A DNA stretch of 64,000 nucleotides from Eledone cirrhosa. Its lineage: Eukaryota. The notes below the pieces were generated by a model. The model saw only the letters and a program-made list of their open reading frames with translations. It was not told where the DNA came from and did no database searches. Made by a program: the position numbers and the translations under genes. Shown here piece by piece: positions 3,441 through 62,745 of the stretch. The stretch's first letter is position 1. Each line of letters opens with the position of its first letter. The stretch spans positions 75,578,001 to 75,642,000 of the forward strand of contig OZ024746.1 in assembly GCA_964016885.1 (NCBI GenBank). Reading direction: 5' to 3'.

Positions 3441-3507
3441 TATTTTATCTGATGAGGACGTACTGTTGAAGATAGCTCTTTACCTCTGAAATATGTATAA
3501 TAAAATA
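3441..3507 (+). ncRNA. Type I hammerhead ribozyme
   Basis: UAUUUUAU-CUGAUGA-degenerate stem II-GAAA-UAUGUA-UA|AUAAAAUA. Stem I is a perfect 8 bp. It lies inside the inverted repeat 3342-3366/3530-3554. Confidence 0.7.
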
Positions 3508-13814: not shown

Positions 13815-14215
13815 TTGGTGGCTGCCAACTCGTTTTCGAGTACGGCCACTACTTTATATCCATGTAGGAGAACCCCTACCGATGCGCTGAACGAGTATGA
13901 CATTTTAGTCCAGCCAACGACTTGAAAACTCTGGTACAAACAGTACACATGTGACAAATATTGACACATAGTGCTGGGCCCATGGTACCATGAGATGACA
14001 AGGGCAGAGAGATCTCCAGATATAAAGCAATGCCTGTGCTGTGAAGCTTTTATAGTGAGCAAAGGCACTGCACAAAGCCAGTCCCACTCTCTTAACCAAG
14101 ATGATATTTACCAAAAAGAAGAACAAGTCAACATCACTGGATACCATCAGGGTTGCAGGTGTTATATTAGAGTTTTCTTTCTCCTAGAATTCTGCCTTGA
14201 CAAAGGCTAAGGGGT
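13815..14215 (-). mobile_element. RTE LINE 3' end with a C2H2 zinc finger
   Basis: CTVCTRVFKSLAGLKCHTRSAHR-type motif plus 3' UTR. A second copy is at 43629-43860. Confidence 0.7.
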
Positions 14216-29359: not shown

Positions 29360-30170
29360 GTCCTGGTGCGCGAGGCCTGGGATCCATGATGTAAAAGATA
29401 CCCAGGACTGAAACATGTAGGGAAGAATGACCAGGAGAACAGAAATGACGGGCGACAGGAGTATCCAAACCGAGTCGTATGTCCCTCAAATGTTCGGCAA
29501 AACGGTCCGCCATACGGCGTCCCGTTTATCCGATATATAAAGACCCGCAAAGGGAACACCGGAGGGCATAGACAACGTGGGTGGATGTGCAGGTGAAGGA
29601 ATGGCGGATACGGAAAGACCCGTTAGGGCCTGTAAGAGTGGTGAGGGTATAAATAAAGGGACAAGTGTTGCAGCGGGAACGGGAACACGGATGAGAGCCG
29701 GGTGGAGTCGTGGGAGAGGGCGAAAAGGAACTGCGAACCAGGAGGTCGCGGAGGCTGCAGGCGTGCTTAAATGCAGTAATGGGTGGGTTTGGAAAAAAGC
29801 GAGAAGTGACTGGGTCAGAAGAGAGGATACGGAAGGAACAGAGGATATGTCGCTGGAGTGGTAGGGTGATGGGGTGGTAGGTGAGAGGGAAAGGAACAAT
29901 GGTGTGGGGGGGGGGGGGCTGTGGTGCGGTCTGTTTCACGGACGCGGGTGAGAGCAGCTTGGATCAGGGTGGGGGGATATCGACGCTGGATGAAGCAGGA
30001 AGCCATGCAAAGGGAATGGGTTTCGAAATCGTCGTCCTGGCTACAGAGCCGACGAAGACGGAGGAATTGGGAATAGGGTATGGAGTGTTTGGTGTGGGTT
30101 GGATGGGAGGAGGTGAAGTCGAGGTAAGATTGGGAGTCTGTTGGTTTAATGAAGATGGAAGTAGAGAGAG
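29360..30170 (-). mobile_element. Penelope-like element fragment (RT C-terminus, Cys linker, GIY-YIG), disabled
   Basis: KPTDSQSYLDFTSSHPTHTKHSIPYSQFLRLRRLCS, CSRSRCNTC and HVVYALRCSLCGSLYIG*TGRRMADRFAEH. Confidence 0.9.
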
Positions 30171-30281
30171 TATATATATATATATATATTGGAAAATGTG
30201 TGAAATCCTTGGTACAGTTAGGTATATTGGAAAAAGGGAAAAGAATGACTTCACTTGTAGTTCTAAACAATTTAATTTTAT

Positions 30282-30471
30282 AATAATTGTTTCTACTATT
30301 GGCACAAAGCCAGCAACTACCCAGAGCATTACTGGTACTTTATTTTATCGACCCCGTAAAGATGAAATGCAAAGTTAACCTCGACGGGATTTGAACTCAG
30401 AATGGCAAGGGCCGTAACTCTATGCGTCAAAGCATGGCGTCCGACCCTCTACCGATACTGCCAATTCACCG
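30282..30471 (-). mobile_element. Full-length SINE family A
   Basis: Reverse complement of the 15783-type copy. Confidence 0.85.
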
Positions 30472-31230: not shown

Positions 31231-32891
31231 CGGCGATGAGTTAGTTTTGCGAGGTTTTTGATATGAAATCGTGTGTCGAAACAAATATTGTTATACTTGG
31301 GGATGATCATATTTGTGTAATATTGCCAGAATTAATAACAGAACACACTCACTGTTTGGTTGGTTTTCGCTTTTCGCTTCTGTGTCTTTTATACCGGTTA
31401 ATTTAATTTATTCGGTCCTCAATGTTGCCATTGACTGACCAACGGTCAAAAATACAGATACAATATAGACACAAACACATATATATAGTCTATCAAAGTT
31501 CTTTCGTTGCATATCTGCAACATCGTCAGTGGTGCTATTGTTTCCTCCCGTTGCATTGTATGTCTACGCCATCTTTATTTAGTCTGTTTATTTATTTGTT
31601 TGTTTTTTTGTCTTCTTTGCGCATGCGTTTGCGTGTGTGTATAGTGTTTTGTTTGGTGTGTGTTCGTGTTTGGGTGACTGTGTATTGGTTAATGTATTCT
31701 ATATTTACTAGTGTGTGTTTATATGTGTTTGTTGTTATTGTGCTTGTGTATGTATTTATTTATTTATCTATTTATTTATTTATTTATACTTCTCTTAGGT
31801 CAGTGTTGTTTGTTTGGGTGTGGTTCTTATTCCATTCATTTTTTCTGTTTAGCCTTGGCCTTCTAAGTTCTATTTCACTGGCCTCTCTGATTTGCCTATC
31901 TGCTAGGTCATTTCTATGTTTAGATATTATTCTAATTTCTATGTTGTCTATGTTACCGTCGTGTTGTTGTCTGGCATGTCCGTATAGTACTGGACCGTTT
32001 TTTCGTCCTTTTAGTTCCCCCCAGTGTTGGTCTATCCTTTCACCTATGCTACGAGCTGTCTCGCCTATGTATGTATGTTGTTGTCCTGTTTCTGCAAGTA
32101 CCCTCTGTACATCTTATGCTATAGACTACGTTTCTAGTTTTACAGTTTATCCGGGGGTTTACTTTACATATGATACATTTCCTATTAGTAGAGTGAGTTT
32201 TCTTAAAAGGGTAGGTTTTGCTGATCAGAGATTTTATGGTGGTTCCTGGCTTTTCTACCACCTTAATCTTGAAGTGGGTCTTTCTCAGGGCCTTTCTACA
32301 CTGGTTAGCTAATTTCCCTCCAGGGGTAGCGTCCACAAACATGACACTCTGATATCTCTGGTTGTCGTACCATGAGGTGGCTTTCCCTATCTTATGCCTA
32401 GCCCTATCTAAGCTATTCCATGATTTGCTCCTGTATAATGGGCAAATTCCTTTCATGTTCAGTTCTATGAGGGTCTTATACTTCTCCGTGGCTCCTTCGT
32501 ATACTCTGATTCTGTCTCTTTGGTTGTAGCCAGAGAATTGCATGCGGTTGATGAAGTGTTGGATGTGTCTTTCCATTTCTGTTGGGTCGCACATGCGGGA
32601 CACGTTCTTCATCACTCGTACCAAGTCTGCGATCAGAATATTAAACTTAACACTACTGGACATTACTGAGTTTTTGAGTATCAGGTATTTGGAGGCCATG
32701 GGTTTAGCATAGTGTGAGTGGAGAATTTGGGCTCTCTCGTCTATAGTGTTAATCCAGAGTTCCGTGTCTAATACAGGTTAGGGTGCTTGGAAGGATAGTC
32801 GATAGTTACAGTTATACTCTGGTGTATGGAATTAGCTATCTTTTAGAACTTAGCACAATGGAAAGCATCCAGCAGATAGGTAATTCCATTC
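31229..32891 (-). mobile_element. Penelope-like retroelement family 1 (RT thumb, CxxC linker, GIY-YIG, 3' UTR with HHR), 5'-truncated with a small 5' inversion
   Basis: ORF 32049-32699 (RMQFSGY, MFVDATPGG, CIICK, CKTRNVVYSIRC). Upstream lie NSIHQSITVTIDYPS and PVLDTELW. The 3' end abuts (TA)n, and an HHR core is at 31502-31529. Confidence 0.9.
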
Positions 32892-37548: not shown

Positions 37549-38742
37549 GCGCACGCGCGTGTGTCCAGACCCAGTCTATCAGGGAACAGTAACAATAGGT
37601 GACATAAAAGGTGTGCTATGAGTGTGGGAGAGGTTAACAGCGGTGAAAGGGGGGATGAAGGATGTTATGTGAAAGGGAAACAGACGGAAAGAGAGACTAA
37701 AAGAGGGAGGGTGACAGAGAAAGGGCAAGACAAAGAGAGTGAGAGATAATGAAGATATAAGGTGTTTCTTGATAAATACTCTGAGTAGCAACTCAGATGT
37801 CACAAGCTATAAGAAGAAGGCTTGAAATTAGTGGAGGAGAGAGGTAGGTCGATTTTTATCAACCCTCATGCTTGACAAGTACTTTATTTTAACTATTTCG
37901 GAAGGCTGAAAAGCAATGTTGATCTCAGCGGAATTTGAACTCAAAACGTAAAAAATCGGAACGAATAACCACCAAATGTTCTACCTGACACACCTAAAGA
38001 CTTTGTCAATTCGCCGCCTTCGGGCCATAAATAAACTCTGGAATATTTATTGAGTTGTTATTTTGTTGTTGTTTTTTCTCGAGTTTCTTAAACAAAACAA
38101 AAATATAGACGTATATGCAAATAAACAAAGTAAAAGCTCCTTATTATAATCACAAATAATGTAACCAACTGGCTATTGTTATCAAAATGTGTGCTTCTCA
38201 AATACTTTATTTCCTTAATGCTATCATTTGGTTATTGTAATCGAAAAGACTTCGCTCGAAAGTGATCAAGGGTGGTTTTAGCTTTGTATATATATATATA
38301 TATATATATATCATCATCATCATCGCTTAATGTCTATTTTCCACGCTAGCATGGGCTATATATATGTATATTTATATATAGATGTGTGTGTGTGTATGTG
38401 TGTGTGTGTGTAAATCTATATATAAACACACACGCATATATAGCATATATATTGATACAGGCGCGTTTGCTTATATATGTGCGTGAGTGTGAGTTTGTTA
38501 CGTTTGTATATCTTCTATTTTAAATCTATTCATATCTATAAATCTATACATTATATAAACCGATATAAGTACATGACAGGTATTTTATATTAACGATTCC
38601 TGGAAGTATGAAAAAGTTGACCGCGGCGAAACTTGAACTCACAGAGTAAATGTCTGTAACTAAATACTTCAAGTAATCGTGTCGGATACTCTAACGATTC
38701 GGTCAATGTGTTTGTGTGTGTGTGTGTGAATATGAATGTCTA

Positions 38743-38778
<36 letters not shown>

Positions 38779-39623
38779 AATATATATGTATATATATATT
38801 TGCGCGCGTATGTGTGTAAGAGGAGCGGCGAATTCGGAGCGAAGAAAGGATCTGTCTGTCTGTATGTATGTATATATGTGTCTGTGTGCGTATGTGTGTA
38901 TGTGTTATGGTGTGAGAAAGATCCGCGAAGGCGGGTTTACGAAATGATAGAAAGAAAGAGAGTGAAAGAATAAACGAGGCTGAGAGATTAGATAGAGAAT
39001 GCTATAATGCAAGGGTAGTAGTATAAGTTGACTTGGTGGAAGGGGCAGTAGCGAAAGAAAAATAGAGAGGGTATCAGATATACCAGAGTAGAAGTATATG
39101 TAATATATAACTGGACAGGCAGGGAGAGGGAGAAAGTGTGGGAGTAGAATGTAGATAGAAAGACTGACAAAATGGAGAGGGTGTGTGTTTGTGACGGTAT
39201 GAGTAGGTTGAGTAAGAAGAAGGAGGAGGAGGAGGCGGTATGAAAGAAGCGTGTGTACAGTTATGCCATGAAAGAGACAGAAGAAGCCACATGCGGTGTG
39301 TGGCCGAAAGTTTGGCTGTGAACTATGACAGGTTGGTTGGTCACTTTTGGATAACATAACTAACTATACATAATACACATACATCTCTATCTATCTCTCT
39401 ATATATATGTATACACACACAATATACACTTGGGATTTTAATAGTCTGGGTAGACACCATGGTGGTGAGTATTGGTTTTTAAAACTTTGTTTTAACACTC
39501 AGGTCAGTCTGAAAACACCTATGAACAGGGACGTTTTAACCGTGGCCATCCTATTGAGTTTTTATATTGTCATGAGTATGTGTTTATATATTACTTTTAT
39601 GTCAGACGCGCAAAAATACATAC

Positions 39624-39695
<72 letters not shown>

Positions 39696-39816
39696 CAAAT
39701 TGAAATGACATATATATTGTATAACCATGTAGTTTCTACTTGTGTTATATATATACACGGTAGGTTTCGGACAGTATTTTTTCCTATACCATGTCTAACT
39801 TAATTGCAACACCTAA

Positions 39817-39862
<46 letters not shown>

Positions 39863-39954
39863 TACAAACGCACGCCTTCATTCATACATACATGTTTTTT
39901 AAGTTTATCAATCAGAATGTATGTGTTACACTTAAACGTTTTAAATAGCTGTCA

Positions 39955-40003
<49 letters not shown>

Positions 40004-40097
40004 CACACACATATATATATATTGTTTGTGTGTTATCTACTATAGTTATGTGTGTAGTGGTTGTATAAAAGGCTGGTCTTTATTTTTAAAGACCTGT

Positions 40098-40139
<42 letters not shown>

Positions 40140-41158
40140 TCATGTGTGTGTGCTTTGCCTGCTGTACCTATATATAGTAACATGTGTTTATATAGATTCG
40201 GTTATCGCTTTGTTTACTATATATATATATATTTTATATATATTTGATATATATTTAGTCTTCAAATTTATTATTATTACTATATATAAATATATATATA
40301 TATGTGTGTGTGTGCTGTTGTTTTTTAAAGTCGTGTATTTATCTCGAGTACTTCGTGTGTGTGTGCTAGTGTTTTGTAAAGTTTATATTATATAGTATGT
40401 ATGGGGTGTTTATGATGTGCACAGGTGGAGTTGTGACTTCCATGCCTTAACCAACCCTTCAAAGTGCAATCGTCAACTTTTCACTGGTTTTGTCAGCACC
40501 GGAGATAGTTGTGTGACTGTGTGTGTGTGCGCGTACAGTTCAAAAGTGTTGCTTCGACAATCAGGTGTGTGTGTGTGTGTGTTTGTCTTGTTGATTAACA
40601 CCAGGTCAGCACCAACTAAACAAATCTATGATCAAATACCTTTCTGACATGAACACCCAGTAACGTAGCTGCATAGGTGCAAGACGTTTAAAAAATGTTT
40701 TGTGTATTGTGTTATTTTCCGTGTGAGGGGAGAAAGATGAAGGGGCCCACCCCTAGGCAACACACATTCTTGCGTCACTGCCGCCAACACCACTTTCTCT
40801 TGGGTATTGTATATCCAGAACGACACTATCCAAGGTGTGACCACATGAAATCCCTCGTTGGTTTATATATATATATGTGTGTGTGTGCTTCACTGTATAT
40901 AGCTCTGTTTATTCATGTGTCCATTTACCTGCATTTAACGTGCATTTATTATAAATACACACACTCGTGTGTGTTTTCCTGTATTCTCTCTCGCACACAC
41001 ACGCTCTCTCTCTCTCTCTCTCTCCGTGTGTGCGTTACACACACACACACATGGCTGTGTGGTGTCTACCTGTGTATATATGTGAGCGTACGTTTACCTG
41101 AATGTATATGCTAAAGTATGTATTTCCTCTTATTTAATGTTGCTTGCCTCAGTGTGAA

Positions 41159-41212
<54 letters not shown>

Positions 41213-41250
41213 ATATTAACAAATGGAAACTATATTTATAAAACCATATT

Positions 41251-41316
41251 TATTTTATTATACTTATTTCAAGGACCACCAAGGCAGATTATGGTGCGCT
41301 TTCATCAGATAAAATA
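41251..41316 (-). ncRNA. Type I hammerhead ribozyme
   Basis: UAUUUUAU-CUGAUGA-AAG..CACCA(loop)UGGUG...CUU-GAAA-UAAGUA-UA|AUAAAAUA. It lies in a unit of about 185 bp (41213-41398) homologous to 62643-62822. Confidence 0.75.
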
Positions 41317-41395
41317 CAATACAGATTAGTTTTATAAATAAATATTGATATACCCTGAAAAAATGCAACCTTAACGGTTGGAGCTTCCTGGATAG

Positions 41396-41488
<93 letters not shown>

Positions 41489-41889
41489 CCATTGGTATAT
41501 AGCTTCATGTTTGTGATAAGTATGAGTATAAAACACTTATGGAAAATATGTATACATACGTGTATACATACATATATAACTCGATGGGTGTGTGATGTAT
41601 GTATAAAAAACATTCGTTAAAAATGTTACTATAAACGGAGTTACGGAATAGCTTTCAATGAATGAGTCAGTGCAAGTGTGACTATAAACGGAATATGATT
41701 ATATCCATTGTCGGCACACATCCTAGATGAATTTCAGTGATTGCAGATATCCATCCATGGGTGATAGACCAAGTAGAACGGACTGGTCTAACTCTGGATG
41801 TGTAACTTGAACTGTTAACGCATACATACATACACATATACACATATGTGTATACAATTATAACTCGTACATATAATCACGTCTGTCTC

Positions 41890-41934
<45 letters not shown>

Positions 41935-42389
41935 TATGGAATACTGTTAGCTTCTCGCGACAACAATTTTCTATACTTTTCATTATATATATTTATATAT
42001 ACACACACACATATACATATATAACTTGTATACATGAATGCGCACATACACATATTTATGGGTAATGTATTGTCCACGCACGGACACGCTGACAAACTTA
42101 CACACATAAATACTTGTGTGTAGTTTGTGTGTAATGTATTGTCTACGCACAAACACACACTTCCACACATACTACTGACTAACTTACACACACACACATT
42201 TGCACTCACGTTTACTGGGGTTTCTGCTTGTCTTTCCCTTATCTCTTCATCCGTCAATCTCCCTGTCCTCCAAAGCACGTGCTGGTGTGTTAAGCAACTT
42301 AGTTGTCGACATAAACACTCGTTGAACTCATGTAAGAGACCATGGCTTATCGAAGATAGAGGAGGAGGGGATGACTGGTTGAAATCGTG

Positions 42390-42765
42390 GATATGACCCT
42401 GGTAGATCTAAAGTGGACCTCGGTGAGATCTTGGGTGGGTCCCGAATAGATGTAGGAGGTATCTCAGGTAGGTAGGTATATGGTAGATTTAAGGTTGATC
42501 GCTGGTAGATATCGTGTGGACCTCGGGTAGTTCTCAGATGGACCCTGGCTAAATGTAGTGTGAATCCAGAGTAAATCTCGGGTGGATCCCGAATAAATCA
42601 TGGGTTGGCGTTGGCCCCGGATAAATCTAGCGTGTCTCGGATAGATTTCTGGTAGATCATTAGTAGGCCCCGGGTAGTACTAGGGCGGGTCACGTGTAAA
42701 TCTAGTCTGGGTTCCGATGGATTACGGGTAGATTTATCGTAGATACCGGGTAAATCTAGGATAGA
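42390..42765. repeat. Old, diverged tandem repeat of about 22 bp
   Basis: Recurrent GGTAGATCT/GTAAATCT...GGACC motifs. Confidence 0.6.
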
Positions 42766-42775
42766 GCTAAGCTGT

Positions 42776-42819
<44 letters not shown>

Positions 42820-43628
42820 TTTATTGGCTGCAGTCATGCTGGGGCACCGCCTTGAAGGGATTTTTGTCGATCAAATTGACCCAAGTATTTTTTTCAAGTT
42901 TGGTGCTTTTTATTCGATCTCTTTTTGTCGAACCGCTAGGTTACGGAACATAAACAGTAAACGTTATGATGTGCGTGTGTGTGTTTTTGTTTAATTGTGC
43001 AGGCAGTGTGTTTCGTAGAGATGTATATAGTAGTAGAGTATATGTGTGTGATGTGAAATGTTTTAAGACAGAGAATAAGAAAGATGTTAAGGGGTTATAG
43101 GACGGCGGTGTTGTGTGGCGAGAGTTGGGTTAGTGACGTTGTAGGGCAGGTGAGTGTGTGGCGAAATTATGGAACGGTGAGTCGGGCAGTGCGGTTGTTG
43201 GACAGGTAAGTGTGGTGGTGTTGGGGGGGGGGGGGTAGATGAATATGGAGATGTGTAGAATGAATGTGAAAGAGAGAGAGAGAGACGAATAAAGTAAATG
43301 AATGTCTAGTGATGTTGATATTGATGTTGATGGTGATATTGATGATGATGATTATGGTGATGTTGATGTTGATGATGATTATGGTGATGTTGATGATAAT
43401 TGTAGTGATGGTTATGATATTGATAACGATAATGATAATTGTAGTGATGGTGGTGATAGTGATGATGATGATGGTGGTGGTGGTGATAGTGATGATAATA
43501 GTGGTGGTGAGGAGGATGAGGTAGTTAAGGTGATTAGTATAATGATGGTGAAGGTGGCTTCAGATGACCAGTGGTCACTATTGTTTAATATTACGTAAAA
43601 AGGATATATATTATGTGTGTGTGTGTAT

Positions 43629-43856
43629 GGTGACTGCCAACTCGTTTTCGAGTACGGCCACTACTTTATATCCATGTAGGAGAACTCCTACCGATGCGCT
43701 GAACGAGTGTGACTTTTTAGTCCAGCCAGCGACTTGAAAACTCTGGTACAAACACTACACTTGTGACAATTACTGACACATTGTGCTGGACCCATGGTAC
43801 CATGTGACGACAAATGCAGAGATCTCCAGATATAAAGCAATGCCTGTGCCGTGAAG

Positions 43857-43860
<4 letters not shown>
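43629..43860 (-). mobile_element. RTE LINE 3' end (C2H2 finger)
   Basis: ORF tail CSVCTRVFKSLAGLKSHTRSAHR; homologous to 13815-14050. Confidence 0.75.
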
Positions 43861-43905
<45 letters not shown>

Positions 43906-44027
43906 AGGAGGTGAGTTTTATTGTAGTACAATAAAGCAATGCAGATATCGGATAAGAAGCACTCTACAGTTTGTAGGACTGGAGTATACATAATATAAGA
44001 TCAAAAGATGGTTAAAGGAGTTCCATG

Positions 44028-44096
44028 TATTTTATTATGCGCATTTCAAAAACAAACATCATCATGCAATAATAGTTGTTTTCATCAGATAAAACA
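44028..44096 (-). ncRNA. Type I hammerhead ribozyme (left arm)
   Basis: Reverse complement of the 44217-44287 HHR. Confidence 0.8.
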
Positions 44097-44216
44097 GGAG
44101 AACATGATATGAAGGCTAAAAAACACTTGTGGATAGTGCAGTTTTAAATCAACATATATGTTGATTTAAAACTGCACTATCCACAAGTGTTTTTTAGCCT
44201 TCATATCATGTTCTCC

Positions 44217-44287
44217 TGTTTTATCTGATGAAAACACAAATATTATTGCATGATGATGTTTGTTTTTGAAATGCGCATAATAAAATA
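44217..44287 (+). ncRNA. Type I hammerhead ribozyme (right arm, sense to the host gene)
   Basis: UGUUUUAU-CUGAUGA-AAACACAAAUA.../...UGUUUGUUUUU-GAAA-UGCGCA-UA|AUAAAAUA, with palindromic stem III (AUGCGCAU). Confidence 0.85.
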
Positions 44288-44317
44288 CATGGAACTCCTT
44301 TAACCATCTTTTGATCT

Positions 44318-44372
<55 letters not shown>

Positions 44373-44883
44373 ACTGAACAAGGTGGAAGAACGTATGTGT
44401 GGCTTGGGTGTTTTATGTGTAGAGAAGCTGGACAGTGCCCTCAAGTCACAGGTGAACTACAAACATGCATACATACACACTCTCATGTTTCTCTCCCCCC
44501 CCCCCCTCTCTATCTATCTCTATCTTTATCCCCTTCTCTGTCCCTCTTCCTACTTCTCCCTACCTTTCCATACCCCTATACTACGTCTCCTCTTCCTCCC
44601 CCCCCCCTCTCTCTCTCCCATTCACTCACATACCTTTCTTCTCTCCCTCTTCTTGCCTCTTTCTCTCCTCTCTCCCTTTCTGTCTGCCCCCCCCCTCTCT
44701 CTCTCTCTCTCTCTTTGCTCTTCACCCTTTCTATTTCCTTCTCTTTATCTCACTCACTCTCCAGTCATATACATTCACCGTCTCTCATTTGTCTTCTTTC
44801 TCTCCACAGATTCCAATCTTGCCCTCTGGCCTCAGCCAGTATGGTTATTAAGTCTACGAAACAAGTTCAATTCCAGGAAGACA

Positions 44884-45865
44884 ATGAACAAAATATTTTT
44901 CTCAACACTAATCTACACTACATTCATCTTGTTGTCAGTGGCGACGGTGTCGTCGTCGGAACTGGTCAACGTTACAACGTCGCCGACGCTAGAGGCCATC
45001 GGTGACGACAGACTCTTACTGCTACCCGAGGGTACGCAGCCCGTCGCCGCCGACGCTTCTGAAACCGATACGAATCGGTCAGATTCGAACCCTGCATTGT
45101 TGGTGGCCAGAGAGCCGATGAAAGAGACTGTGAGTAACTACAGCGCACCGCCCCCTGCGCTCTACCTACGAGAGCAAGTCAATGTAACAGAACGTCGCTG
45201 GCTTGTGTCGCAACAACAGCGACGACACAATGACAGTTATTTGAAAACCAGCGGGAGGGAGGGCAGCAATGGACGAGGTACTGCTGAAGTGGTGAAACGC
45301 CGTCGTTTTTATGGCCAACCACAGAACTATGTTCAGTACCAACGCAAAACTATCATTAGAAAACATCCTCCCCCTGAAACCGAACCTAAAGACATTTCTC
45401 ATCTATTATCATCAACAGATTTGTCAAACAAAACTTCGACGGGTTCAAACCCAAGCCCTTTCGGCGCTGATGCCGACGGCCTCACCGTCAATTCAACTGC
45501 TGAACCTTACGTTGCACTGTTTAATTCGTCGTCATCGTTGGCACCCTGGGTGCTGCTCCCCTTGCCTTCGTCGTCAGCTGTCGACGTGTTGTGTCCCCCC
45601 TGTGACTCCACCAGATGTCCTCATGAAGGCGGAACTTATTTACGGTGCCCGGCTCAGCTGAGGATTAAGGACGACTGTGGTTGTTGTGTGGTTTGCCTAC
45701 ATGGTCTGCACCAATCGTGCGGAGGGATGTACCAGATATTGGGCAAATGCCGGGTAGGTTTAGAATGCATACCTACTAAGAATACCGATTTTTCAGCTTT
45801 GCGTCTACCTTCTGGAAATACGGAGAAACCACGTCCCTTTTTTGAAGGGACGTGTCAACTAAAAG
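44884..45865 (+). CDS. First coding exon of a secreted or cell-surface IGFBP-domain protein (CRIM1-like or IGFBP-related)
   Basis: Polypyrimidine tract and CAG| acceptor at 44809/44810. ATG at 44884 begins the signal peptide MNKIFFSTLIYTTFILLSVATVSS. The 12-Cys IGFBP domain reads CPPC..C..C..CGCCVVC..CGG....GKCRVGLEC..GTC. The phase-1 donor is AG|GTAAGT at 45865/45866. Confidence 0.88.
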
Positions 45866-46068
45866 GTAAGTCTATCTATTTTTGCTCCTATATTTCTTGA
45901 ACCTGGGGGTTAACACTTTCGATGTTTCCTACAAAAGACTTCAACTTCCATCTCTCCATCTACCTTACACTCACACATGTGTGTGTGTATAATGTATGTA
46001 TGTTGTTACAGCCCACGCTTAGGTATGTTTAGCTGACCCGAGACGAGGCTGCATCTCATAAGAAGTTT

Positions 46069-46750: not shown

Positions 46751-47104
46751 ACGCACACACACAGAGACGCACACACACAGAGACGCACACACACAGAGAC
46801 ACACACACACAGAGACACAGACACACACATACAGACACACAGACACACATATATAAAATTGCTTTTTACATCGTTTTTTCCCATGTGTATATGTGTGTGC
46901 TCGCATGCGTGCACAGCGGGCTGGATGTCAACAACCAACAAACGAGATTGATCTAAGCCGAAATTTATTTCTTTTGTTTGATCATTTGTTATTTTCTATG
47001 TTCACACCTATTACAGTTGTTTGTGTGAGAATATATCACACACTCATATGTATATTGCTTTTATGTGTGTGTGTGTATATGTATATATATATATATAGTT
47101 CCAC

Positions 47105-47173
47105 ATATTTTATGCGCATTTCAAAAACAAATATCATCCTTGAACGATAATTGCGTTCTCATCAGATAAAATA
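47105..47173 (-). ncRNA. Type I hammerhead (same family as 44217), intronic
   Basis: UAUUUUAU-CUGAUGA-stem II-GAAA-UGCGCA-UA. The 3' strand of stem I is shortened. Confidence 0.65.
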
Positions 47174-47285
47174 AGGTAACATATGATGCCTAAAAACACT
47201 TGTGAACAAGAAAGTGTCCAGTCAACATATATATATATATATGTGTGTGTGTGTACAAACACAAGCATATTGAACATACATATAT

Positions 47286-62680: not shown

Positions 62681-62745
62681 TATTTCATTATACATATTTC
62701 AAGGACACCAAGTTAAATTATGGTGTGCTTTCATCAGATAAAATA
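62681..62745 (-). ncRNA. Type I hammerhead ribozyme
   Basis: UAUUUUAU-CUGAUGA-AAGCACACCA(loop)UGGUGUCCUU-GAAA-UAUGUA-UA|AUGAAAUA. Confidence 0.8.

What the first reader, a model, noticed from the sequence alone, without database searches (positions are those of the whole stretch)
43990..44325. 335-bp double-ribozyme palindrome about 490 bp upstream of the host exon's acceptor
Seen: a spacerless palindrome with an intact HHR on each strand, one of them sense to the IGFBP-domain gene. The acceptor at 44810 implies that this region is intronic. Inference: the pre-mRNA could either self-cleave after 44279 or form a roughly 165-bp hairpin that masks the ribozyme and is an ADAR or Dicer substrate. 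This matters if the host is a coleoid, where A-to-I editing is extensive. It could also extrude a DNA cruciform.
Basis: partly seen in the sequence, partly recalled or inferred. Interest (0 to 1): 0.75.

Follow-up and report, generated by a model that had tools for sequence, protein, structure and literature searches.

The report
Back-to-back Penelope retrotransposon stub in CRIM1
This palindrome is one of about a thousand back-to-back stubs of a Penelope-like jumping gene in this cephalopod-like genome, likely made when both ends of one DNA cut copy the same RNA from two fixed start points, and in the host gene's likely intron it is predicted to fold into a hairpin that blocks its ribozyme rather than to cut the RNA.

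Summary
The palindrome and both hammerhead (HHR) cores are real, but the insert is larger (43903-44325) and not unique. It is two head-to-head 3' ends of a Hydra-type Penelope-like element (PLE) in a (TA)n tract; the left arm carries an 87-nt tail. A 29-mer of the arm has 15,074 exact genomic hits; 905 + 217 loci carry spacerless centre words; long copies encode an ~800-aa RT/endonuclease-type protein. Head-to-head PLE ends, one-sided tails and opposite-strand HHR pairs are published. Family data point to a mechanism: 118 of 124 pairs join one tailed and one tail-less end, arms share a haplotype, 20 tailed arms barely overlap their partner (no fold-back copy), and arms stop at one site often preceded by an extra G, likely a capped RNA start. 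In host CRIM1 pre-mRNA the hairpin is predicted to beat the HHR fold by 92 kcal/mol, so cleavage at 44279 is unlikely. The acceptor at 44810 is supported; the upstream exon was not found; editing is untested at this locus. The scan noted similar palindromes before on other DNA of this genome; the capped-start idea comes from those notes and was partly tested here.

The parts
43861..43902 (.). Left target remnant: (TA)n then (TG)n microsatellite
   Evidence: Sequence; 208 of 212 family ends are followed by TATATA within 20 nt
43903..43989 (-). 87-nt PLE tail (element positions 170-256), left arm only; long (L) end at 43903.
   Evidence: Matches the sequence between pLTR and 5' UTR in tandem full-length copies
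43990..44157 (-). Left arm: element positions 0-169 (pLTR segment with HHR), antisense to the host gene
44028..44096 (-). Minimal type I HHR, left copy; core intact, predicted cut after 44036, private 2-nt deletion plus substitution in helix II
44150..44163 (.). Junction: both arms begin at element position 0 (inferred capped RNA start) and overlap by 2 nt (AT)
   Evidence: 217 loci carry this 22-nt centre word, 905 the 4-nt-overlap form; hot spot and extra G
44156..44325 (+). Right arm: element positions 0-169, short (S) end running into (TA)n; sense to the host gene
   Evidence: 44157-44318 is contained exactly in 22 of 232 aligned arms, itself included
44217..44287 (+). Minimal type I HHR, right copy; helix I 8 bp, helix II 12 bp, helix III 2 bp with palindromic loop; predicted cut after 44279, predicted to be masked by the left arm
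44326..44371 (.). Right target remnant: (TA)n then (CA)n
   Evidence: Sequence
44810..45865 (+). Host CRIM1 exon: acceptor AG at 44808-44809, ATG at 44884, hydrophobic N-terminus, IGFBP domain, donor GT at 45866
   Evidence: Pfam PF00219 E 1e-6; 66% identical over 337 aa to Octopus sinensis CRIM1; X4 contig 44809-45867 whose loose end reads on into a CRIM1-like peptide

Best explanation
The palindrome is a short head-to-head insertion of a Hydra-type Penelope-like retrotransposon in a (TA)n tract, likely made when both ends of one target cut primed copies of the same capped RNA, and it is predicted to sit in CRIM1 pre-mRNA as a passive hairpin with its ribozyme masked. Shown: the arms are the 3' end of an RT-encoding element; the outer ends are its two fixed ends (short S, tailed L), one of each; the inner ends stop at one hot spot. 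Inferred steps: (1) the element RNA starts at position 0, 123 nt before the HHR cut; (2) the endonuclease cuts (TA)n and one DNA end primes at S, the other at L; (3) both cDNAs read through the uncut HHR and run off the capped 5' end; (4) their self-complementary ATAT ends anneal by 2 nt (here) or 4 nt and are joined. The HHR belongs to the element's own cycle, probably as a dimer or with protein help, and not to host regulation.
For: 15,074 exact hits of an arm 29-mer. Open frames of 821, 808 and 775 aa between arms, with Hydra motifs and an RT-like fold whose best matches include TERT. 118 of 124 head-to-head pairs are L+S, 3 LL, 1 SS, 2 other; p = 2e-30 against independent choice. Arms share a haplotype: 1.5% divergence within against 6.9% between in 77 pairs; 30 of 1220 informative sites differ against 466 expected. 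In 41 of 118 pairs the S arm reaches further 5' than the L arm, and 20 L arms start at position 145 or later, so neither arm can be a copy of the other. Hot spot: only 4,356 of 11,147 position-0 words keep the upstream template; 24 of 99 arms sampled without regard to their 5' end start at -2..+2. G precedes 2,111, A 570; in 15 of 30 G loci, classed by eye, the partner does not explain the G. HHR fold penalty +92 kcal/mol in the hairpin. Two RT start sites bounding the tail, both-strand cutting and use of uncut RNA were shown for an Anolis PLE (PMC11167929).
Against: No RNA 5' end was seen; the start site is inferred from DNA only. The G excess is partly confounded: 6 of 30 G loci could be a partner ending at the templated -1 base, 9 of 30 could take the G from partner microhomology, and a null that demands ATA/ATAT microhomology gives G 5:A 4 and 2:1. 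Many arms extend past position 0 (51 of 99), which needs priming on the 3' pLTR copy or read-through RNA. 30 informative mismatches and pairs such as L013 and L131 with two linked differences suggest two templates at times. One RNA against two RNAs from one locus is not resolved, and arm-to-arm gene conversion could add likeness. The 41/118 count is enriched by my selection of position-0 arms, and a few rows are BLAST overruns of some bases. No upstream host exon and no empty site were found. No tree was built.
Confidence: 0.72

Rival explanations
1. Same PLE origin, but the second arm arises by self-priming: either a cDNA folds back at ATAT and is copied, or an antisense template self-primes, as proposed for head-to-head PLE palindromes (PMC3846280).
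For: Explains identical arms and, with endonuclease trimming at S, the L+S rule; ATAT is self-complementary; 58 of 118 pairs have equal 5' starts and 13 have the L arm longer, as fold-back allows; centres with short duplicated pieces occur.
Against: In 41 of 118 pairs the S arm holds sequence absent from the L arm while only the L arm holds the tail; 20 L arms are nearly tail only. Centres with an extra G on both arms (L147/L148) fit two independent run-offs from a capped sense RNA.
Confidence: 0.13
2. The insert is a co-opted host regulator: a cleave-or-fold switch, an ADAR/Dicer hairpin, or a promoter or poly(A) signal acting on CRIM1.
For: It lies about 490 nt upstream of a used acceptor; a 165-bp near-perfect duplex is a textbook ADAR substrate (established knowledge); the Penelope pLTR can drive downstream exons (PMC2377424 Discussion); AATAAA occurs at 43930 and 44279 on the host strand.
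Against: HHR fold penalty +92 kcal/mol; the copy is young and one of about a thousand alike; the left HHR is already decaying; X4 has no contig depth over 44380-44787 (contigs show presence, not absence); no A-to-G load in 232 arms, maximum 2 per arm, and 0 of 15 pair-shared private variants are A-to-G.
Confidence: 0.07
3. Two independent single insertions landed back to back in one (TA)n tract, or the palindrome moves as a MITE-like unit.
For: The family strongly prefers (TA)n; hundreds of loci share the same centre word.
Against: Partners share haplotype and follow the L+S rule; palindromes occur across subfamilies from 85 to 99% identity, each pair matching itself; the ends are asymmetric, unlike terminal inverted repeats.
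Confidence: 0.05
4. Fold-back sequencing or assembly artefact.
For: Spacerless palindromes are a known chimera type (own knowledge); no read spanning this locus was seen.
Against: One-sided tail, different flanks, private arm differences, ends at the family's two fixed sites; joints at 44156 to many partner positions occur in independent short-read contigs of the family.
Confidence: 0.03

Closest known systems
Hydra clade of C-terminal EN+ Penelope-like elements, including Hydra-1_Obim of Octopus bimaculoides (Craig et al. 2021, PMC8557442; passages, section 11 and supplement rows read)
   Same: Single RT-EN ORF, DKT, CxCx5C linker, CxxC and CxH in the EN, HHR in the pLTR, (TA)n target, inverted 5'-truncated copy, tail at one end only
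   Different: Another family: other HHR sequence than Hydra-1_Obim (by eye), RWT/RWI instead of RWK, unit near 3.6-3.9 kb with a repetitive 3' UTR and an N-rich insert, tail 87 nt instead of 30-40, very high copy number, sharp 5' hot spot
Minimal type I HHRs of metazoan PLEs (Cervera and de la Pena 2014, PMC4209133; parts 1-2 of 4 read)
   Same: Long helix II, short palindromic helix III, predicted dimer dependence; dual HHRs 100-700 bp apart on opposite strands already reported in Schistosoma
   Different: That paper does not resolve ends, tails or junctions of such pairs in the parts read
Anolis PAc (Poseidon) in vitro system (Frangieh et al. 2024, PMC11167929; parts 1-2 of 4 read)
   Same: Two RT start sites bound the tail; AT-rich target cut on both strands; predicted dimer; uncut RNA is the template; HHR needs protein
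   Different: Other clade; in the parts read the start sites do not differ between strands and the one-L-plus-one-S rule in inverted pairs is not reported
L1 twin priming and untemplated 5' G from the cap (Hancks and Kazazian 2016, PMC4859970; passages read)
   Same: Two target ends priming on one RNA give an inversion; an extra G marks a capped 5' end
   Different: L1 primes at poly(A) and at a variable internal site, so arms do not overlap; here both sites are fixed, 87 nt apart, and the arms usually copy the same stretch
Non-LTR retrozymes (bioRxiv 10.64898/2026.07.22.740005; part 1 of 5 read)
   Same: Type I HHR, PLE-derived, non-coding
   Different: Retrozymes are tandem head-to-tail units; this insert has one unit per arm, head to head, and is a fragment of an autonomous element

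Membership tests
EN+ Penelope-like element | Single ORF with telomerase-related RT | tested here: met
   821/808/775-aa frames with YRDD; model pLDDT 74; Foldseek best matches are RTs and TERT, E about 3e-7 but TM only 0.2-0.35. Pfam, NCBIfam and PDB sequence searches gave no RT hit at cut-off
EN+ Penelope-like element | C-terminal GIY-YIG endonuclease | tested here: inconclusive
   LIY/YFG motif pair with R, E, N aligned by eye to homologues and to Hydra rows of the paper's supplement; no profile or fold hit for this domain alone
EN+ Penelope-like element | pLTR from partial tandem, with HHR | tested here: met
   L048, L050-L052 carry direct arm copies around the ORF
EN+ Penelope-like element | Inverted 5'-truncated copy and a tail at one end | tested here: met
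   118 of 124 pairs; the window copy is L+S
Hydra clade | DKT in place of DKG | tested here: met
   SDKT
Hydra clade | CxCx5C linker; CxxC and CxH around E and N; no CCHH | tested here: met
   Read from alignment A1; absence of CCHH judged by eye
Hydra clade | N-terminal RWK motif | tested here: inconclusive
   RWT/RWI here, RWK in several homologues
Hydra clade | (TA)n insertion preference | tested here: met
   208 of 212 ends
Hydra clade | Phylogenetic placement of the RT | not tested
   No tree built; reference proteins were only seen in the paper's supplement
Minimal type I hammerhead ribozyme | Conserved core with helices I and II | tested here: met
   Core intact in 216 of 232 arms (sample partly selected on the 3' core); common helix variants keep pairing, e.g. 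A-U/G-U and U-G/C-G
Minimal type I hammerhead ribozyme | Self-cleavage activity | not testable with these tools
   Predicted poor as a monomer (helix III pair probability 0.001) and blocked in the hairpin
Non-LTR retrozyme | Tandem head-to-tail HHR units | tested here: not met
   One unit per arm, head to head
MITE / foldback DNA transposon | Symmetric terminal inverted repeats, moved as a unit | tested here: not met
   Asymmetric ends; each pair matches itself across subfamilies

The most novel reading that the evidence does not exclude
This family is a genomic record of how Penelope-like elements build inverted ends: one capped sense RNA is copied twice by a dimeric enzyme, from the S site on one target end and the L site on the other; the trailing polymerase displaces or collides with the leading one, both read through the uncut hammerhead, and run-off at the cap leaves an extra G. 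This would replace the antisense self-priming model and explain one-sided tails.
Probability: 0.5. Interest if true: 0.62.

Novelty: new member of a known kind. Interest (0 to 1): 0.4.

Why it matters
As a CRIM1 regulator the locus is probably unimportant. As a specimen it matters more. How PLEs form tandem and inverted ends is named an open question in PMC8557442, and the published suggestion is self-priming on an antisense template (PMC3846280). This family gives counts (L+S rule, shared haplotypes, non-overlapping arm pairs, extra G) that favour two primings on a sense, capped RNA and yield sharp predictions for the existing in vitro system. It also implies roughly a thousand near-perfect 165-bp hairpins in the genome of an animal group known for heavy A-to-I editing (PMC4384741, listing only), a possible bulk source of intronic double-stranded RNA; that remains untested.

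Tried and rejected
Rfam at gathering score: 0 matches. DNA search of the own genome with the arm: empty because common words are skipped; exact patterns were used instead. No RNA holder listed; X4 is taken as cDNA only because its contig is spliced. Upstream host exon: not among the joints shown for 37600-44860. Next CRIM1 exon: not found in the window or genome with two patterns and one protein query, so the gene model rests on one exon plus the contig's loose end. A>G at 45225 in X4: synonymous CGA to CGG at full depth in another sample; treated as an allele, not editing. HHR cut site as a main 5' hot spot: only a few starts at 127-133, though the sample is biased against them. Empty-site inference from the neighbouring repeat failed: the right flank does not continue it. 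Pfam, NCBIfam and PDB sequence searches for the element protein: no hit at cut-off. ESM Atlas gave no result. Co-folding two sense HHR copies did not return the dimeric active fold as MFE (uninformative). [quoted passage not shown]

Full report
Observation. The window holds a spacerless palindrome with its axis at 44156/44157. The arms pair over about 166 nt apart from a 2-nt indel and one substitution, and the RNA folds at -266 kcal/mol, z -45. Each strand carries a type I hammerhead core, with predicted cuts after 44279 (+) and 44036 (-). Rfam reports nothing at gathering score. Three more cores of the same build (3449 +, 41308 -, 62737 -) and a 79% copy of the arm at 47097-47204 lie in the same window.

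What the arms are. The window lies in a 3.0-Gb genome. A 29-mer from the arm has 15,074 exact hits. Fetching around hits shows arms flanking open frames of 821, 808 and 775 aa. Homologues are 31-42% identical, one from Argonauta. The alignment shows SDKT, YRDD, a CxCx5C linker and CxxC/CxH in the C-terminal domain, the marks given for the Hydra clade of Penelope-like elements (PMC8557442 section 11), which includes an Octopus family. A predicted model matches reverse transcriptases, TERT among the best, at low TM-scores; profile libraries gave no hit at cut-off. The layout is 5' UTR, ORF, a 1-kb repetitive 3' UTR, the HHR segment, and an 87-nt tail that leads into the next unit in tandem copies. 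In the window the left arm includes that tail and ends at 43903; the right arm ends at about 44325 without it; both run into (TA)n. The insert is therefore 43903-44325.

How common this form is. The exact centre word of this locus occurs at 217 places and the form with two fewer bases at 905. Of the loci fetched, 32 of 35 and 12 of 15 gave a head-to-head pair. Among 99 arms sampled by the 29-mer alone, 74 are in a head-to-head pair. Inverted 5'-truncated copies and one-sided tails are described PLE features, and HHR pairs 100-700 bp apart on opposite strands were reported in 2014.

Rules the copies obey. (a) Of 124 pairs, 118 join one tailed (L) and one short (S) end; 3 are LL, 1 SS, 2 other. 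(b) Partners share a haplotype: 1.5% divergence within against 6.9% between in 77 pairs, and 30 of 1220 informative sites differ against 466 expected. A few pairs differ at two linked sites. (c) In 41 of 118 pairs the S arm reaches further 5' than the L arm, in 13 the reverse, 58 are equal and 6 are both long; 20 L arms start at position 145 or later. Only L has the tail, so in those pairs neither arm is a copy of the other. This sample is enriched for position-0 arms by my selection. (d) Position 0 is a hot spot: 4,356 of 11,147 words there keep the upstream template. G precedes 2,111 and A 570. By eye, 15 of 30 G loci have a G that the partner cannot supply, including centres with a G on both arms; 6 are ambiguous and 9 fit microhomology. 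A microhomology-aware null weakens the raw ratio. Untemplated G marks capped 5' ends in L1 and SVA, and Penelope starts transcription in its pLTR. The idea that the turning point is the RNA start came from earlier notes of this scan on other DNA of the same genome; the counts are mine.

Mechanism. Most likely the enzyme cuts (TA)n, each DNA end primes a cDNA, one at S and one at L, both pass the uncut HHR, run off the capped end and anneal through ATAT (2 nt here). Two start sites bounding the tail, both-strand cutting, a predicted dimer and use of uncut RNA were shown for an Anolis PLE. One RNA rather than two is suggested by the L+S rule, the shared haplotypes and the L starts near the S site, but is not proven. 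The published rival, self-priming on an antisense template, does not easily give non-overlapping pairs.

The host gene. The exon encodes an IGFBP domain and is the N-terminus of CRIM1, 66% identical to the Octopus sinensis protein; a cephalopod host is inferred from this. A contig from run X4 covers 44809-45867 and continues into a CRIM1-like peptide, so it is spliced and starts at the acceptor. The start codon lies in this exon, so the insert is probably in a 5' UTR intron; the upstream exon was not found, nor was the next exon.

Cleave or fold. The left arm is made first. Forcing the HHR fold costs +92 kcal/mol in the palindrome and in a nascent chain ending at 44300, and +5.4 for the HHR alone, whose helix III has pair probability 0.001. 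Such minimal HHRs were inactive as monomers in vitro. The antisense arm cannot act as the dimer partner (inference). So a hairpin is predicted, not a switch. Editing at this locus could not be tested; 232 family arms show at most 2 rare A-to-G changes each and 0 of 15 pair-shared variants are A-to-G. The left HHR has a private lesion (1 of 232 arms), while the right arm is contained exactly in 22 of 232: a young copy starting to decay.

Verdict. The thing is a new family of a known kind and a known insertion form. A host function is unlikely (7%). The interest lies in the family as a testable record of PLE insertion. No paper stating the L+S rule or twin priming for PLEs was found; the library is incomplete. 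Papers seen: PMC8557442 (passages, section 11, supplement rows), PMC11167929 and PMC4209133 (parts 1-2 of 4), PMC3846280 and PMC4859970 (passages), PMC2377424 (passages, Discussion), bioRxiv 10.64898/2026.07.22.740005 (part 1 of 5), PMC4384741 (listing only).

Noticed in passing
window 43627-43862: Truncated copy of another dispersed repeat that ends in the (TA)n tract hit by the PLE; a 33-mer has 2,113 exact genomic hits, a second copy lies at 13816-14052; other copies continue past the break; no identity assigned.
   Followed up: partly
window 3441-3507 (+), 41251-41316 (-), 62681-62745 (-), 47097-47204 (-): Further minimal HHRs with the same helix I but other helix II and III sequences (likely sister PLE families), and a diverged solo arm that stops near position 0 in (TA)n.
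   Followed up: partly
window 45866 onward: The next CRIM1 exon seen in the X4 contig was not found in the window or in G000 with two patterns and one protein query; it may be missing, withheld or variant in the assembly.
   Followed up: partly
window 45225: A>G in the X4 contig at full depth, synonymous Arg codon; probably an allele.
   Followed up: partly
window 32049-32777 (-), 29526-30339 (-): Frames that look by eye like fragments of other PLE clades (SNHP and CxxC-type linker motifs); no Pfam hit.
   Followed up: no
L046 4391-5390, L048 3' UTR: The 3' UTR holds internal tandem repeats of about 110 and 220 nt that vary between copies, and the ORF has a low-confidence N-rich insert before the endonuclease, recalling N-rich inserts of rotifer PLEs.
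   Followed up: no
L057 222-956 (-): Fragment of a different Hydra-like RT (DKT, DHK motifs) beside a family copy.
   Followed up: no
L083 4721-5078, L085 4398-4664: Older, 78-87% identical members of the same family also form head-to-head stubs, so the process has run for a long time.
   Followed up: partly
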